Shown here: positions 32,201 through 38,200 of the stretch, in pieces
Layout of the letters: each line of letters begins with the position of its first letter
Position numbering within the stretch: position 1 is the first letter of the stretch
Assembly: GCA_038215615.1 (NCBI GenBank)
Contig: JBBQQR010000002.1
Location: forward strand, 81,743 to 145,742
Direction: 5' to 3'
Source: Vulcanimicrobiales bacterium
GTDB lineage: Bacteria > Vulcanimicrobiota > Vulcanimicrobiia > Vulcanimicrobiales > Vulcanimicrobiaceae
Length of the DNA stretch: 64,000 nt
Program-made: the position numbers

Positions 32201-35200
32201 TGATCGCCGCTATCGCTAACGCGGCCGGTATTTCCGCGGGGATTGTCGGTACGCTCGGAACGAAATTTGACGACATAGATCGCCCACTCGACCACACGAC
32301 GCCGCTCGCGTCGGAGTTACAAGCGCTGCTCGCGCAGATGCGCGACAAAGCCGTGAAAATTGTGGCGATGGAAGTCAGTTCGCACGCGCTCGCGCTCGAG
32401 CGCGTTTCCGACGTACATTTTGCCGTGGCGGGGCTGACGAACGTCACGCGCGATCATCTGGATTTTCACGAAACGCCCGAAGCCTACGCCGCTGCTAAGC
32501 GCCGGCTCTTCGATTTTGCGGAGCGCGCCGTTCTCAATGCCGACGATCCGTACGGAGCTCGGTGGGCCGCCGAGCTGCGCGACGTAAAACCCGTTGTTGC
32601 TTTTGGCGTGGAGTGTCCGGCTGACGTCCGCGCGGAAAAAATTCGCGTACACGCGAGCGGTTCGAACTTCGAGGTAGACGGACGGCAATTCGAGCTCCGA
32701 CTTACCGGACGGTTCAACGTCAGCAACGCTTTGTGTGCGATCGCTTCCGCGCGAATGCTTGGAATCGCGGACGATATCTCTGCGCGCGGCTTGGCGTCGG
32801 TCGAACACGTGCGCGGTCGCATGGAGCGTATCGATGGCGGCGACGTCGACGTGATCATCGATTACGCGCATACGCCCGACGCGTTGGAATCCGCATTGCG
32901 CGCGCTGCGCGAAGTAGCGCCCGGCCGTCGCATCGTCGTTTTCGGCTGCGGCGGCGATCGGGATCGCGGTAAGCGGCGCGAGATGGGCGCGGTCGTCGCG
33001 CAAAATGCGGACTACGCCTACGTAACATCCGACAATCCGCGCACAGAAGATCCGCGCGCGATTATTGAAGACATACTGCCCGGCATGGCAGGGGCGCCGC
33101 ACGAAGTCGAACCGGATCGCCGCCGCGCGATCGCGACTGCGATTCGAAACGCGCAACCCGGCGACACGATTTTGATCGCCGGCAAAGGTCACGAGACATA
33201 TCAGATCGTCGGCAAGCGAGTCTTACCATTTGATGACGCCGCCGAAGCGCGCCGTGCGCTGGCGGAACGCGAGCGCGTTCCATCATGACGCTTTCGTTCG
33301 AACGTGCGGCCGAGGCGACAGGCGCGGAAATGCGCGGTCGCGAGCGCGCTCCCGAAACGCTCACGGTTGTCACCGATACGCGGTCGCTGAATCCGGGAGA
33401 TACGTTCCTGGCACTGCGCGGCGAGCACTTTGACGGCCACGATTTCATCGGCGAGGCGCTGAAAAAAGGCGCCGCGGCCGTCGTCGTCGATTCTCCCGAG
33501 GCTCAAAGCAACGGCGTCGCTGCGCTGATCGTACGCGACACGCGCCGGGCGTACATGGATTTGGGTGCGGCGTCGCGCGCGCAGTTTTCCGGACGCGTCG
33601 TCGCGGTGACCGGCAGCTGCGGAAAAACGACGACCAAAGATTTTCTGTGCCAGCTGCTGATCGCGACGCTGGGACCTTCGGCCGTCGCTTCATCGCCGGG
33701 GAATGAAAACAATGAAATCGGCGTCAGCAAGCTGTTGCTCTCGCTCACGCCGCAGCAGCAGATGCTCGTTGTCGAGATGGGCGCGCGGCATACCGGCGAG
33801 ATTGCCGAACTGGTCGCGATTGCATCGCCGCATATAGGTATATTGACGAACGTAGGCGACGCGCATTTGGAGATTTTCGGATCGCGCGAGAAGCTGGCGG
33901 CCACGAAATGGGGGCTGTTTTCAGAGGGCGCGCAGGCTGTGCTCAACGCGCGCGATGAGATCTCTCGTAACCGGTCGAGCTCGCTCGAAGCGCCGCCGCT
34001 GTGGTTTGGCGAAGGCGAGCCTTCGCTGCCCGGCGTCTGGGTCCGCGACGAAAGCACGCTCGTGCTCAACTATGGCGGCGCCTCCCAGACGCTTTCGATC
34101 CGCACGCCGTTTCCCGGCGCGCACAATCGCGCGAACCTTGCGGCTGCAATTGCGGGGGCGCTGTTGCTCGGAATAAACGCCGAGGAAATCGCGAGTAACG
34201 TCGCGGGACTCGTCTTGCCGCCAGGGCGGTATGAAAACATCGCGATCCCCGCCGGGCCGCGGCTCATTTATGATGCGTACAACGCGAACGCGAGCGGCAC
34301 GATAGCGTCGCTTACGACCTTCTCAGCGGAAAACGCTCGCCGCCGCATTGCGGTGCTTTCCAGCATGGCGGAGCTCGGTTCCGATGCACCTGCGATCCAC
34401 GAACGCGTTGGAGCTCACGCGGCGTCGATGAACATCGACGTGCTGCTGGTCGGGGGGGATTTTGCCGCATCGCTAGCCGCGGGCGCGGTGCGCGCGGGCT
34501 TGTCGCGCGAGCAGATCGTGACGTTCGGCGAAAACGAAGAAGTGGCGAAGTGGCTTCGCAAACATGCTACCGATGAAGACGTCGTCTTGCTGAAAGGCTC
34601 GCGCAAATACCGCATGGAGGAGATCGTGCAGTCGCTTCGGGCAGGTGCGGCGTGAGCGGAAGCTTGCGCGTCGACCGCCCGCAGATTCCGGCCGGCATGG
34701 TTGCGATTCCGGTGCGCACGCGTCTCGTGCAGCCGGGAGAAGATCTCCCCGCGCTTATTCAAACCTCGGTTGACGGCATCGCGCAGCCCGGGGACGTGCT
34801 GGCGATTTCTGAAACCGCTGTCGCGATCGCGCAGCGTCAGGCGGTGCCCGCGGAGTACGTGCGCCCGTCGCGCCTCGCGCTGCTGCTCTCGCGCCACGCC
34901 GGCGCCATGGCGACCGTGAGTCAGCCGGAGTCGGTGCAGATCGTGATCGACAACGTCGGCGCTCCGAAAGTCGCATACGCTGCCGTTATGCAAGTTTTGG
35001 GGCGTTTGGCCGGCCGGCGCGGCATGTTCTATGAAATTTTGGGCGAGGCGATTGCGGCGATCGATGGGTACACCGGGACGATGCCGCCGTTTGATAACAT
35101 GATCGTCTTTGCGCCGCAAAACCCCGACGCGTTTGCGCAGTCCGTTTTTGAGCGGACCGGTATTGGATGCGCGGTGGTCGACGCGAACGATCTCAATAGC

Positions 35201-38200
35201 GCCAAAGTTTTGGGCGCGTCGTCCGGCGTCAATCGCGACAGCGTCGCCGAGGCGCTCCTTTCAAATCCTCACGGCAACGGAGACGAGCAAACACCGGTCG
35301 TTGTTCTGAAGTGGCGCGGCGAGGGCCGCAATCCGCTGGTCGAGGCACGCCCGTGAATACGGTCGATTTCGCCGTGCAGATTCATCCATGGGGACTGGTC
35401 GCCGTTGCACTCCTCGGCTTTTTGCTAGCCGTCGTCACCTGCGCCCTACTATTACCGGTGTTGGGCAAACTGCAACTGCGCCAACGCGCGTACGAAGACG
35501 CGCCCGAGTCCCATCAAATAAAGACGGGAACGCCCACGATGGCGGGAGCGTGCTTTGTGATTGCGCTCGTACCGATGCTGCTCATACCGAGTGCCGCACT
35601 CGGCTATTTGTTGGCGCTGGTGGCCGGTTGCGCGCTCATCGGATTGCTCGACGACGTATTGGGCGTACGCTTCGGACGAAATCGGGGGCTAAGAGCGCGT
35701 ACGAAATTCTTGTTCACAGCGCTCGTAGCGGTCATGTTCCTGCGAGCAATCGACGGCGGGAGTGCCGTCTATCCCCGTGACGTCATTTTAACCATTAGCA
35801 GTCACGCGATCCCCGCTCCTCATTGGGTGTGGTTAATCCTGGGTATCGTCGCGATTGCGGGTACAATGCACGCCGTTAACCTTACCGACGGCCTCGATGG
35901 TCTCGCGTCCGGCGCGATGGTTTTTCCGCTGGGCGTGCTCGCAACTCTGGCCGTGATCACTTTCACCGCGCTCAGCATTCCGGCGCTCCTCGGCCTAGGA
36001 GCGTGCTTGGGTTTTCTTGTTTACAATCGGTACCCGGCGAAGCTCATCATGGGTGACACGGGTTCCCTTGCGCTCGGCGCGTTGCTTTCGGGGATTGCGA
36101 TCCTGAGCGGGCAGATGCTGCTCCTGGTCATCATCGGTGGCGTTTTCGTGGCCGAAGCGCTGTCGGTAATGACCCAGGTCGTGTACTTCAAACTGACGCA
36201 CGGCAAGCGCATCTTCAAGATGAGTCCGTTGCACCATCATTTCGAGCTATCCGGATGGCCGGAAACAAAAGTAACGACGCGGTTTTGGATTGCGTCCGCG
36301 ATTTTCTCCGCCGTGGGACTGGCGATCGTAAGATGAATTTTGCTGCCGGCGAGAAGATCTTGGTCATCGGGCTCGGGCGCAGCGGGAAAGCCGTCGCCGA
36401 AGTCTTGCGCGGCCGCGGCGCCGATGTATATGCCATCGACGAAAAACCCCGGGCCGAGCTCGCGGAGACGATTGCCGGTCTTGAAGCAATGGGCGCGCAG
36501 TACGTCGCCCCCGAGAACATCGGAGAACTCACCAACGTGAATTGCGCCGTCCTGTCTCCGGGCGTGCCGCTGAACGGACCGCTGGTCCGCAAGATCCAGA
36601 GCGGCAACATTCCGGTCTACAGCGAGATCGAAGTCGCTTACCGTTTGTGCAAGGCGCCGATTATCGCCGTCACGGGAACCAAAGGAAAATCGACGACAGC
36701 CTCGCTTATCGGCCACTTGCTGCGCGCGTCGGGCAAAGATGCGCGCGTCGGCGGCAACATCGGCAATCCGCTCATTCTGGAAGCCGTTGCCGCGTCGCCG
36801 GAAAGCTGGGTCGTAGCCGAAGTGTCGTCGTTCCAGCTCGAAACGATTCGCTCGTTCCATCCGCGTGTATCGGTGCTTCTGAATATTTCGGCCGACCATC
36901 TGGACCGGTATCACTCGATGGACGAATACATCGAAGCGAAATATCGCATCTTCGCAAACCAAAACGAACACGACGTCTTTATCGGAAACCTCGACGATCC
37001 GGTGCTGGCACTTTTGCACCGGCACTCGGGCGAAGCGCGCGTGCGCGCCAAACAAATGTGGTTTACGCTCGGAAACGACAGCAAACACGCGACGATGTAC
37101 TTGCGCGACGGCATGCTAATCTTTTCGCCGGTGACCGGCGATCCGCGGCCGATCGCTATTGCGGGCCGCGACGATATTTCATTGGCGGGACTGCACAACG
37201 TGCAGAACGTTATGGCCGCGTCGCTGGCCGTGCTGGCTGCCGGCCTCGAACCGCGCGAACTTCGCGACGGCATCCGGACCTTCGGTCCCATGTCGCACCG
37301 CATGCAGCCCGTCGGTGAAGTTGACGGCGTCCTTTACGTGGACGATTCGAAAGCCACCAACCCAGGCGCCGTAATCGCGGCTCTGCGCGCGTATGACAAA
37401 CCCATCGTGCTAATCGCCGGCGGGAAACCCAAGAACACCGACTTTACCGAACTCGGCCGGGTCGTTGACGAACGCGCCCGCGCGCTCGTGGTGATCGGCG
37501 AAGCCGCTGGCGACATTGCGGCGCACGTGTACCGCACGCCGATCGAGCGCGCCGGTTCCATGGAAGAAGCGGTTCGCACGGCGCAGTCGCTGGCCCAGCC
37601 CGGTGACATCGTATTGCTTTCGCCGGCATGCGCCTCGTTCGACATGTTCGAATCGGCCGAAGATCGCGGACAAAAATTTACCGATGCTGTGTTGGGGACG
37701 CCGGCGCGATGAAAGCTTCGGTTGCCAAGCGGCAGGCCCATAACCAAGAACTTCCGCGTTCGTTCGTCGCTTCGCCGCCCGACACGTGGCTGTTCATCGC
37801 GGTCACGAGTTTGGTTGCGATTGGGCTGGTCATGATCTTCAGCGCCTCGAGCGCGCAAGCGTACGCCGATCACCACGACACGGCGTACTACGTGAAGCGG
37901 CAAGCACTGTATCTGGTGATCGGGTTGATAGGCGCGTACTTTGCCTACAAGATCGATTACCGCAAGCTGCGCGCGTTCGCTCCCTACGCGCTGCTGCTAT
38001 GCATCGCAGGTCTGCTGACCGTTTTCGTTCCACACGTAGGTCAGACAGTCTCCGGCGCACGCCGCTGGATCGGCGCGGGCTCGATTTCTTTGCAGCCTTC
38101 CGAGTTTGCCAAACTGGGCCTCGTGATCTATTTAGCGGCGGCGCTCGCGGGCCGCGGCGAACGTATCACCTCGCTGACGCGGGGGCTCGCGCCGCTCTGC

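What a model noticed while it worked through the whole genome (the two positions that open the first line are those of the whole stretch)
34652..35356. CofE-like amide ligase wedged between murF and mraY in an organism without coenzyme F420 genes
g00335 (234 aa) has the fold of CofE, the GTP-dependent F420-0:gamma-glutamyl ligase, but sits inside the cell-wall (dcw) operon between murF and mraY, overlapping both by 4 nt, in a genome with no other F420 biosynthesis or F420-dependent gene. I read it as a sixth cytoplasmic peptidoglycan-precursor ligase that adds an extra amide-linked residue (for instance on the free carboxylate of D-Glu or meso-DAP of UDP-MurNAc-pentapeptide) before MraY acts, and not as an F420 enzyme as public annotation says. 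New would be a new catalytic family in peptidoglycan synthesis and a lineage-specific stem-peptide modification in Vulcanimicrobiales.
Evidence so far: Gene order on C2 (+): mraZ-rsmH-g00331-ftsI-murE(113570-115030)-murF(115027-116397)-g00335(116394-117098)-mraY(117095-118078)-murD-ftsW-murG-murC-murB-ddl. Pfam F420_ligase E 2e-11, only profile positions 2-130 of 218. AlphaFold2 (18 close homologues, mean pLDDT 63.6; 66-151 poor) still finds only CofE in PDB: 2g9i, 2phn, 7uld, E 1.5e-8 to 2.4e-7, 18-19% identity; next hit E 1.8; by sequence profile only residues 24-88 align to CofE, E 0.02. neighbours.tsv: F420_ligase lies within two genes of a Mur ligase in 297 of 352 genomes of the order (84%; the family itself is in 86%), next to MraY (Glycos_transf_4) in 270, but in only 402-420 of about 43,300 genomes of all prokaryotes that bear both [...]
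(Added by a program. Inside this text positions count along the whole contig: contig position 81,743 is position 1 of the stretch shown here. "Call 12" and the like, gene names such as g00115 and contig names such as C1 are that model's own, and its searches are not shown. The text may have been shortened before it was handed on; [...] marks where a part breaks off. The agent that wrote the report below was given it as the finding of a first reader that could run no searches.)

Follow-up and report, generated by a model that had tools for sequence, protein, structure and literature searches.

The report
CofE-fold ligase for cell-wall peptide
A small enzyme annotated as a coenzyme F420 ligase is instead most likely a cell-wall precursor enzyme, and its relatives in Negativicutes make it a candidate for the unidentified enzyme that attaches polyamines to peptidoglycan.

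Summary
A 234-aa ORF (34652-35356, +) with the CofE fold overlaps murF and mraY by 4 nt each, in a genome where I found no F420 biosynthesis genes.

- The gene is near-universal in the phylum (384 of 401 genomes).
- It lies between murF and mraY in 33 of 33 loci of its class.
- It is fused in frame to MurF in 26 protein clusters.

It is not lineage-specific. The same subfamily occurs in 198 of 201 Negativicutes genomes. There it always follows a gene for an uncharacterised membrane-anchored beta-sandwich protein. In the other classes of the window's phylum that partner is fused to the enzyme's N-terminus.

Negativicutes are the clade known to carry cadaverine or putrescine amide-linked to D-Glu of the stem peptide. 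No paper I could search names the gene for that step.

My best reading is an NTP-dependent amide ligase acting on a stem-peptide carboxylate at the MurF/MraY step. The likeliest reaction is polyamination of the D-Glu alpha-carboxylate. The substrate is inferred, not shown. Cell-wall chemistry in this phylum is unknown, and the genome also has the alternative tether (a CsaB-like enzyme and SLH domains).

The parts
34652..35356 (+). X: 234-aa CofE-fold protein, GTG start. Conserved motifs: S53-E54...Q61, G124-x-F126, D138, P146, P155, D177-A-N179-D180, N205-P206-x-G208...T214-P215.
33285..34655 (+). murF (Mur_ligase N, M and C domains). Its stop overlaps the start of X (GTGA). In 26 clusters of relatives MurF and X form one polypeptide.
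35353..36336 (+). mraY (Glycos_transf_4). Its start overlaps the stop of X (GTGA).
28274..43221 (+). dcw cluster that holds X: mraZ-rsmH-ORF139-ftsI-murE-murF-X-mraY-murD-ftsW-murG-murC-murB-ddl.

Best explanation
X is a soluble, NTP-dependent amide-bond ligase of the CofE superfamily that has nothing to do with F420. It modifies a free carboxylate of the peptidoglycan stem peptide at the step between MurF (which makes UDP-MurNAc-pentapeptide) and MraY (which makes lipid I).

Proposed mechanism, by analogy with CofE: the carboxylate is activated as an acyl phosphate with GTP or ATP and divalent metal, then attacked by an amine.

The favoured reaction is amidation of the alpha-carboxylate of gamma-D-Glu with a diamine (putrescine or cadaverine). 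That is the modification known in Negativicutes, where it gives the SLH domain of OmpM its anchoring site.

In Negativicutes and in the other classes of this phylum the enzyme is held at the inner face of the membrane by a partner: an N-terminal helix plus a beta-sandwich domain. In the window's class that partner is missing, and the gene sits inside the dcw operon or is fused to MurF.

Shown: fold, distribution, gene order, fusions, partner and its topology signal, lack of an F420 pathway.
Inferred: ligase activity, nucleotide use, which carboxylate, which amine.
For: 1. CofE fold over residues 15-232 (Z 14.9).

2. Core gene of the phylum: 384 of 401 genomes, and 246 of 247 high-quality genomes (these tallies include 14 genomes flagged unpublished).

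3. murF-X-mraY is contiguous in 33 of 33 loci of the class. X is more conserved (70-77% identity) than MurF (51-65%) or MraY (55-66%) in loci L011-L032.

4. Of 49 longer relatives, 26 are MurF + X fusions, 21 of them with all three Mur domains. They sit on contigs up to 2.37 Mb and are named Candidatus Eremiobacteraceae. Six of 30 long relatives scanned are Amidase_3 + X fusions without a signal peptide.

5. Profile A2 matches 198 of 201 Negativicutes genomes. The tree puts the window, Negativicutes, the fused form and the Amidase_3 fusions in one subfamily (branch support 100/95).

6. In 78 of 80 Negativicutes loci a 185-aa partner gene lies immediately upstream. The other two loci are cut by a contig end. 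The partner is homologous to the N-terminal part of the 400-aa fused form (27% over 142 aa). Mean K+R is 0.29 before the helix and 2.13 after it (n = 92), so the domain faces the cytoplasm.

7. Negativicutes carry polyamines on the D-Glu alpha-carboxylate (passages in PMC10628300, PMC5020339, PMC12826042 and 10.1101/2021.05.31.446380). None of those passages names the enzyme. Searches found no paper that does.

8. The competing D-Glu amidation enzyme was not found: MurT_C matched 0 of 9 genomes of the genus and 0 of 31 Negativicutes genomes, while the control rang in Corynebacterium and Lactococcus.

9. Amine supply exists. An AAT-fold Orn/Lys/Arg decarboxylase and a spermidine synthase are present in 9 of 9 genomes of the genus.

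10. PF01996 did not ring in control genomes whose SLH tether uses pyruvylated polymers (Synechococcus, Thermus, Deinococcus, Thermotoga), nor in B. subtilis.
Against: - No substrate evidence of any kind. The peptidoglycan chemistry of this phylum is unknown (PMC9758169 passages report only a thin peptidoglycan and an LPS outer membrane).
- The genome has a CsaB-like pyruvyl transferase and SLH domains. That is the other known tether, so polyamination is not needed to explain outer-membrane anchoring here.
- The membrane partner was not found in the window's genome (best HMM E 0.26).
- The catalytic site was checked only in part. D177 aligns with AfCofE D150, but T151 is Ala here. The window protein reads QRQ where most of the family has QGR. 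The role of these CofE residues is recalled from Nocek 2007, which I could not read.
- The murI neighbourhood in Negativicutes (50 of the 72 loci with enough upstream DNA) may simply be the inherited murI-rph-rdgB neighbourhood of Firmicutes.
- In the other classes of the phylum 0 of 11 loci lie next to murF or mraY. Two lie next to folate genes.
- The two X + MraY fusions are single-member clusters. They would place X on the side of MraY's N-terminus, which I recall to be periplasmic. One junction looks like frameshifted sequence.
- The control used a profile that matches this subfamily only moderately.
Confidence: 0.6

Rival explanations
1. Peptidoglycan-related, but a different reaction or role. 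X might add an amino acid (Gly, Glu, an amidated residue) rather than a polyamine. It might act on the meso-DAP carboxylate. Or it might be a non-catalytic adaptor that hands UDP-MurNAc-pentapeptide from MurF to MraY.
For: The same context and fusion evidence applies. Nothing here fixes the carboxylate or the amine. The window form lacks the membrane partner and departs from the family's QGR motif. The genome has the CsaB/SLH tether.
Against: Acidic and Asn residues are invariant or nearly so across 45 diverse members (D48, D138, D177, N179, D180, N205), and X is more conserved than its neighbours. That pattern fits an enzyme better than an adaptor. The one stem-peptide modification known in the other clade with near-universal presence (Negativicutes) is the polyamine on D-Glu.
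Confidence: 0.22
2. A gamma-glutamyl ligase for another cofactor, for example an alternative folylpolyglutamate synthase like the CofE-type enzymes proposed in folate metabolism (TIGR04132).
For: Weak TIGR04132 match (E 0.066, 12.6 bits). Two of 11 fused-form loci lie next to folate genes: MTHFR/S-methyltransferase in L044 and FolD in L046.
Against: The TIGR04132 cut-off is 350 bits. Canonical FolC scores above its cut-off in the window's genome (322.5 bits against 162.65), in 9 of 9 genomes of the genus and in 5 of 5 Negativicutes genomes. This reading explains neither the MurF fusions, the Amidase_3 fusions nor the dcw position.
Confidence: 0.06
3. It modifies another envelope component made at the inner face of the membrane, such as a secondary cell-wall polymer, an LPS precursor or an undecaprenyl-linked intermediate, rather than the stem peptide.
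For: Membrane-anchored partner. The clades that have it are diderm with LPS. The fused-form loci have varied neighbours, including NAGPA and a pyruvyl transferase.
Against: The MurF fusion and the position between murF and mraY point to the pentapeptide precursor. Amidase_3, the other recurrent fusion partner, acts on the MurNAc-peptide bond.
Confidence: 0.08
4. The public annotation is right: it is coenzyme F420-0:L-glutamate ligase.
For: PF01996 above its gathering score. CofE is the only structural match.
Against: Equivalog scores are about a tenth of their cut-offs. No CofC, CofD, CofG or CofH. The G153-C155 segment that faces the F420 chromophore in AfCofE (PMC10861534, section 8, read) is not kept. 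The gene is a core gene of Negativicutes.
Confidence: 0.03

Closest known systems
CofE / FbiB N-terminal domain (F420-0:gamma-glutamyl ligase, PF01996; PDB 2phn, 2g9i, 7uld)
   Same: Same fold over nearly the whole length (Z 14.9, 25% identity over 185 aligned residues). The N-terminal 60 residues align by sequence. The Asp of the 'TDTN' metal-site segment is kept. The chemistry is presumed to be the same: carboxylate plus amine via an acyl phosphate.
   Different: About 20% identity. Fails the equivalog cut-offs. The chromophore-facing segment is not kept. No F420 pathway. Sits in the dcw operon or is fused to MurF. In other lineages it has a membrane-anchored partner that CofE lacks.
MurT/GatD and AsnB/LtsA-type amidotransferases (amidation of D-iGlu or meso-DAP of peptidoglycan precursors)
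   Same: They modify a free stem-peptide carboxylate on cytoplasmic or lipid-linked precursors, after the Mur ligase steps.
   Different: Unrelated folds (Mur-ligase/GATase and Asn-synthase). They install ammonia. MurT_C was not found in the window's genus (0 of 9) or in Negativicutes (0 of 31).
The activity that links cadaverine or putrescine to the D-Glu alpha-carboxylate in Selenomonas and Veillonella. I recall it as a particulate 'lipid intermediate:diamine transferase' from Kamio's work; those papers were not seen.
   Same: Clade distribution (198 of 201 Negativicutes genomes), membrane attachment through the partner, and amide-forming chemistry on a glutamyl carboxylate.
   Different: It is an activity without an assigned gene in anything I could search. 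The link to this family is my inference. The window's form has no membrane partner.

Membership tests
CofE superfamily (PF01996 fold family) | CofE alpha/beta fold | tested here: met
   Model pLDDT 92.1. Foldseek E 1e-10, next hit E 1.0. VIA-align Z 14.9 over residues 15-232, next hit Z 4.5.
CofE superfamily (PF01996 fold family) | Pfam gathering score | tested here: met
   46.1 bits against 25, but only profile positions 2-130 of 218.
CofE proper (F420-0:L-glutamate ligase; TIGR01916, NF009809) | Equivalog score cut-off | tested here: not met
   23.3 against 180.65 bits, and 28.9 against 274 bits.
CofE proper (F420-0:L-glutamate ligase; TIGR01916, NF009809) | Co-occurrence with the F420-0 pathway (CofC, CofD, CofG/H or FbiC) | tested here: not met
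   CofC has no match. The CofD-family match is YvcK. The CofH-like matches are best explained as MqnE (best hit, 408 bits, below its cut-off of 434.55) and MqnC (460 bits, above its cut-off of 428). Genome completeness 100, 54 contigs.
CofE proper (F420-0:L-glutamate ligase; TIGR01916, NF009809) | Chromophore pocket: G153-C155, F92 and R234 of AfCofE (PMC10861534, section 8) | tested here: not met
   G153-R-C aligns to D-(gap)-L of the family. F92 and R234 could not be aligned.
CofE proper (F420-0:L-glutamate ligase; TIGR01916, NF009809) | Metal ligands D109, D150, T151, E208 (recalled from Nocek 2007, not read) | tested here: inconclusive
   D150 aligns with D177 (kept in at least 90% of 45 sequences). 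T151 aligns with A178. D138 and E212 are candidates for D109 and E208 by position only.
CofE-type folate gamma-glutamate ligase (TIGR04132) | Model cut-off, and the absence of FolC | tested here: not met
   12.6 against 350 bits. FolC is present above its cut-off.
Mur ligase family (MurC-F, Mpl, MurT, FolC) | Mur_ligase N, M and C domains | tested here: not met
   X matches no Mur ligase domain, while its neighbours do.
Peptidoglycan polyamine-attaching enzyme of Negativicutes (activity without an assigned gene) | Present throughout the clade that has the modification | tested here: met
   198 of 201 genomes of the class of Selenomonas sputigena. 404 relatives in genome contigs, of which most of the best 80 are named as Negativicutes genera; three carry other names.
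Peptidoglycan polyamine-attaching enzyme of Negativicutes (activity without an assigned gene) | Membrane-bound, cytoplasmic face | tested here: inconclusive
   Met for the Negativicutes and fused forms through the partner. Not met for the window's own protein, which has no hydrophobic segment and no partner in the genome.
Peptidoglycan polyamine-attaching enzyme of Negativicutes (activity without an assigned gene) | Forms the D-Glu alpha-amide with a diamine | not testable with these tools
   Needs biochemistry or muropeptide analysis.

The most novel reading that the evidence does not exclude
This CofE-fold family, with its membrane-anchored beta-sandwich partner, is the unidentified enzyme that attaches cadaverine or putrescine to the D-Glu alpha-carboxylate of peptidoglycan and so creates the OmpM anchoring site. 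Its near-universal presence in the Eremiobacterota, inside the dcw operon or fused to MurF, predicts that polyaminated peptidoglycan is not confined to diderm Firmicutes.
Probability: 0.4. Interest if true: 0.9.

Novelty: new variant of a known kind. Interest (0 to 1): 0.8.

Why it matters
Polyamines on peptidoglycan were described in Selenomonas in 1981. In Negativicutes they are needed to hold the outer membrane on through OmpM. No paper I could search names the gene for the attaching enzyme.

This finding offers a concrete candidate that can be tested by genetics: a two-gene module in Veillonella, Selenomonas and Sporomusa, and a single dcw gene in Eremiobacterota.

If it is right:
- A third enzyme fold joins peptidoglycan precursor synthesis, beside the Mur ligases and the ATP-grasp ligases.
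- Hundreds of database entries named 'coenzyme F420-0:L-glutamate ligase' in organisms without F420 are corrected.
- The evolution of outer-membrane tethering in Terrabacteria gains a new data point.

Even if the amine is something else, the recurrent MurF fusion makes an unrecognised step between MurF and MraY likely.

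Tried and rejected
- Homodimer prediction of X (complex prediction, two copies with alignment A1) gave no verdict (score 0.00, controls not run). 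It says nothing either way.
I used the single Sporomusa protein instead.
- Papers I could not read: Nocek 2007 (CofE active-site residues), Kojima 2010 and 2011, and Kamio & Nakamura 1987. The metal-ligand numbering and the 'lipid intermediate:diamine transferase' are therefore recalled, not read.
- The supplementary figures of PMC10861534 that list the ligand contacts were not opened.
- Residue-level superposition on 2phn was not possible, because no coordinates are returned.
- tblastn and an HMM of the partner found nothing in the window's genome.
- The fold of the partner domain is only a generic Ig-like beta-sandwich (GAE/adaptin ear, ApaG, TMEM106B; Foldseek E 2.5e-4 and weaker, TM 0.4-0.58). 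That gives no functional lead.
- The X + MraY fusions (P0454, P0480) were set aside as weak evidence: they are single-member clusters, one has an Arg-rich junction that looks frameshifted, and they conflict with the recalled MraY topology.
- The protein atlas added only that the nearest clusters are Bacillota and Vulcanimicrobiota.
- I did not test expression, since no sequencing-run search was made.
- I did not search for F420-dependent oxidoreductases.
- I did not survey Halanaerobiales, Fusobacteriota or other phyla for lack of a genome handle.

Full report
**The observation.** It overlaps the stop of murF (33285..34655) and the start of mraY (35353) by the tetranucleotide GTGA in both cases. 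Pfam gives PF01996 F420_ligase at E 5.3e-12 and 46.1 bits, over profile positions 2-130 of 218 only. Pfam scans of the neighbours confirm the order mraZ-rsmH-ORF139-ftsI-murE-murF-X-mraY-murD-ftsW-murG-murC-murB-ddl.

**Not an F420 enzyme.**
- The two NCBIfam equivalog models for CofE score 28.9 and 23.3 bits against cut-offs of 274 and 180.65.
- In the window's genome (54 contigs, completeness 100) PF01996 matches only this gene, and CofC has no match.
- The single CofD-family match is YvcK (TIGR01826, 375 bits).
- The two CofH-like radical SAM genes are best explained as MqnE and MqnC of the futalosine menaquinone pathway. MqnC passes its cut-off; the MqnE assignment rests on a best hit of 408 bits, below its cut-off of 434.55.
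- In AfCofE the segment G153-C155 faces the F420 chromophore (PMC10861534, section 8, read). In the profile alignment that segment is not kept.
- I did not search for F420-dependent oxidoreductases.

**Fold.** With an alignment of 45 diverse single-domain homologues (A1) AlphaFold2 gives mean pLDDT 92.1 and pTM 0.88. Foldseek finds only A. fulgidus CofE (2phn, 7uld, 2g9i; E 1e-10 to 3e-9, TM 0.54-0.59), and the next hit has E 1.0. VIA-align against 48,161 representative chains gives Z 14.9, rmsd 3.2 and 185 aligned residues over model residues 15-232; the next hit has Z 4.5.

By sequence profile only residues 24-86 align well to AfCofE (E 3e-6). A weak second stretch puts the family's V-D-A-N-D on AfCofE's T-D-T-N-G. 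So D177 corresponds to D150, which I recall as a metal ligand, and T151 is Ala here.

Across the 45 sequences the invariant or nearly invariant residues are T23, D48, Q61, G124, F126, G131, D138, P146, P155, D177, N179, D180, N205, P206, G208, T214 and P215. That is the pattern of an active enzyme, but I could not map these residues onto the CofE site one by one.

**Distribution and conservation in the phylum.** A six-frame search of 401 genomes of the phylum finds the protein in 384. Among genomes at least 90% complete it is in 246 of 247, and it is in 113 of 116 genera (these tallies include 14 genomes flagged unpublished).

In the 30 best loci of the window's family, plus three loci from two other families of the same class, murF-X-mraY is contiguous in 33 of 33. 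In loci L011-L032 X keeps 70-77% identity to the window's protein, while MurF keeps 51-65% and MraY 55-66%. X is therefore the most constrained of the three.

**Fusions.**
- A search for longer relatives returned 49 proteins. Of these, 26 carry Mur ligase domains followed by the CofE-like domain, and 21 of the 26 have all three Mur domains. They are 451-771 aa long and 52-66% identical to X. Some clusters have several members, contigs reach 2.37 Mb, and two are named Candidatus Eremiobacteraceae. Domain order was confirmed for P0123, P0455, P0458 and P0464. This is a recurrent natural MurF-X polypeptide.
- Among 30 long relatives from the exhaustive search (713 hits at E <= 1e-3), six are N-acetylmuramoyl-L-alanine amidase (Amidase_3) + CofE-like fusions, one cluster having 25 members, named from Bacillota and Spirochaetia bins. 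None has a signal peptide or hydrophobic segment.
- Six more are Asn-synthase-like + CofE-like fusions. Others carry TPR, GNAT, M20 peptidase or adenylate kinase domains.
- Two X + MraY fusions exist (P0454, P0480). I give them little weight. Each is a single sequence and one junction looks frameshifted. They would also put X at the N-terminus of MraY, which I recall to be periplasmic.

**Outside the class: a membrane partner.** In 11 genomes from other classes of the phylum the homologue is a 397-434 aa protein and is never next to murF or mraY (0 of 11). Its neighbours vary. One locus has ddl and a NAGPA-family gene, and two have folate genes. AlphaFold2 of one of these proteins (pLDDT 89.8) shows an N-terminal helix (2-33), a beta-sandwich (38-171), a disordered linker, and the CofE-like domain (196-397). 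The beta-sandwich resembles only generic Ig-like domains.

**Negativicutes.** Named cluster members led me to Sporomusa and Limnochordia. A scan of one genome per species with the Sporomusa protein found 404 relatives. Most of the best 80 loci carry Negativicutes names: Sporomusa, Pelosinus, Anaerovibrio, Megasphaera, Selenomonas sputigena, S. ruminantium, Propionispira, Veillonellaceae and others. Three are labelled Lachnospiraceae, Anaerotignum or Patescibacteria, which may be binning errors.

A profile search of 201 genomes of the class of S. sputigena found the gene in 198, nearly always as a single copy.

In 78 of the 80 loci a 185-aa ORF ends a few bases upstream of the gene. The other two loci are cut by a contig end, and all 78 ORFs match one HMM. 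This ORF has no Pfam family and is 'hypothetical protein' wherever a name is given. It has an N-terminal hydrophobic helix, and it is homologous to the N-terminal part of the fused form (27% over 142 aa). The two-gene module of Negativicutes therefore equals the single fused protein of the other Eremiobacterota classes.

Basic residues average 0.29 in the 15 residues before the helix and 2.13 after it (n = 92). By the positive-inside rule the beta-sandwich, and with it the enzyme, sits on the cytoplasmic face. The partner was not found in the window's genome (best E 0.26).

**Tree.** A maximum-likelihood tree of 56 domains splits the family into two subfamilies (branch support 100/95). The window's dcw type, the Negativicutes type, the fused type, the Amidase_3 fusions and the TPR fusions fall together. 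The Asn-synthase, GNAT, M20 and adenylate-kinase fusions fall in the other subfamily. The order inside the first subfamily is unresolved.

**Link to a known but orphan reaction.** In Negativicutes cadaverine or putrescine is amide-linked to the alpha-carboxylate of D-Glu of the stem peptide. The SLH domain of OmpM/Mep45 needs this to tether the outer membrane (passages of PMC10628300, PMC5020339, PMC12826042 and 10.1101/2021.05.31.446380). None of these passages names the enzyme. Four searches of the library found no paper that names it or that links a CofE-like protein to Negativicutes. The library lacks most subscription journals, so this is not proof that nothing is in print. From memory, Kamio described the activity as a particulate enzyme acting on the lipid intermediate, but I could not read those papers.

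Several properties fit such an enzyme:
- It has amide-forming CofE chemistry.
- It is universal in Negativicutes.
- It is tethered to the inner face of the membrane.
- In another diderm phylum of the Terrabacteria it is fused to MurF or placed just before mraY.

**Tests of rivals.**
- Folate: canonical FolC is present above its cut-off in the window's genome (322.5 bits), in 9 of 9 genomes of the genus and in 5 of 5 Negativicutes genomes. An alternative folylpolyglutamate synthase is not needed.
- D-Glu amidation: MurT_C was found in 0 of 9 genomes of the genus and 0 of 31 Negativicutes genomes, while the control rang in Corynebacterium and Lactococcus. The D-Glu alpha-carboxylate is therefore not taken by MurT/GatD.
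- Amine supply: an AAT-fold Orn/Lys/Arg decarboxylase and a spermidine synthase are in 9 of 9 genomes of the genus.
- Against the favoured reading: the genome also has a CsaB-like pyruvyl transferase and SLH domains, which is the other known tether.
- Neighbourhood in Negativicutes: murI lies within 2.5 kb upstream in 50 of the 72 loci with enough upstream DNA. An S-adenosylmethionine decarboxylase lies downstream in 11 loci and an HDAC-like gene in 36. The murI link may only reflect the old murI-rph-rdgB neighbourhood.

**Mechanism proposed.**
- Shown: a CofE-fold protein that is highly conserved, translationally coupled to murF and mraY, recurrently fused to MurF, and homologous to a membrane-tethered enzyme that is universal in Negativicutes.
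- Inferred: it activates a stem-peptide carboxylate with GTP or ATP and divalent metal, and joins an amine to it. The carboxylate is the alpha-carboxylate of D-iGlu, the amine is a diamine, and the substrate is UDP-MurNAc-pentapeptide as it leaves MurF, or lipid I.
- I put 0.6 on a stem-peptide amide ligase and about 0.4 on the polyamine version.

**Novelty.** The fold and the general chemistry are known. The role, the partner and the operon position are not, as far as I could search. I rate it a new variant of a known kind, with high interest, because it turns an old open question into a simple knockout and an LC-MS experiment.

Noticed in passing
L038:5018-7285(-), L040:9316-11238(+), L042:5393-7300(-), L046:5755-7464(-), L047:5678-7408(-): In 5 of 11 loci of the fused form, a 569-755 aa ORF without any Pfam family lies next to the gene and is transcribed divergently from it. 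I did not test whether these ORFs are homologous to each other.
   Followed up: no
P0142 (461 aa): A 44%-identical relative is recorded from a eukaryotic protein set (Tetraselmis, source 'eukprot'). It could be contamination or an algal gene.
   Followed up: no
window 34652-35356 compared with 33285-34655 and 35353-36336: X is more conserved across the family than either MurF or MraY (70-77% against 51-66% identity in L011-L032).
   Followed up: partly
window 43229-46771: After ddl the cluster does not continue with ftsQ/A/Z. Instead come an Amidohydro_1 gene (43229-44608), a 314-aa ORF without a family (44645-45589) and citrate synthase.
   Followed up: no
window 23209-26538 (-) and 26475-27629 (-): A 1109-aa pentapeptide-repeat protein and an LptF/LptG LPS-export permease lie just upstream of the dcw cluster. 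The permease fits a diderm cell.
   Followed up: no
L049, L083, L073, L089 (Sporomusa, Pelosinus, Lucifera, Anaerospora), 0.7-5.5 kb downstream of the gene: A conserved set of genes (HGD-D, BcrAD/BadFG ATPase, hydantoinase A and a 439-aa HDAC-like protein) follows the module. The HDAC-like gene occurs in 36 of the 61 loci with enough downstream DNA. Bacterial HDAC-like proteins include acetylpolyamine amidohydrolases (recalled).
   Followed up: partly
Subfamily B: P0226, P0234, P0243, P0248, P0252, P0253, P0481, P0486-P0494: A second subfamily is fused to glutamine-dependent Asn-synthase-like enzymes (651-941 aa) in bins named Chloroflexi, Bacillota and Acidimicrobiales. Asn-synthase-like enzymes amidate meso-DAP in some Gram-positives (recalled), so this may be another cell-wall link.
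   Followed up: partly
G000:C1:136958-139887: Adjacent MqnE-like and MqnC genes, consistent with menaquinone made by the futalosine route. MqnC passes its model cut-off; the MqnE-like gene scores just below its own.
   Followed up: yes
P0454, P0480: Two single-sequence X + MraY fusions would place X at MraY's N-terminus, which I recall as periplasmic in solved MraY. The window's MraY is short (327 aa) with about nine hydrophobic segments by a crude scan. Either the fusions are assembly errors or the topology differs here.
   Followed up: partly
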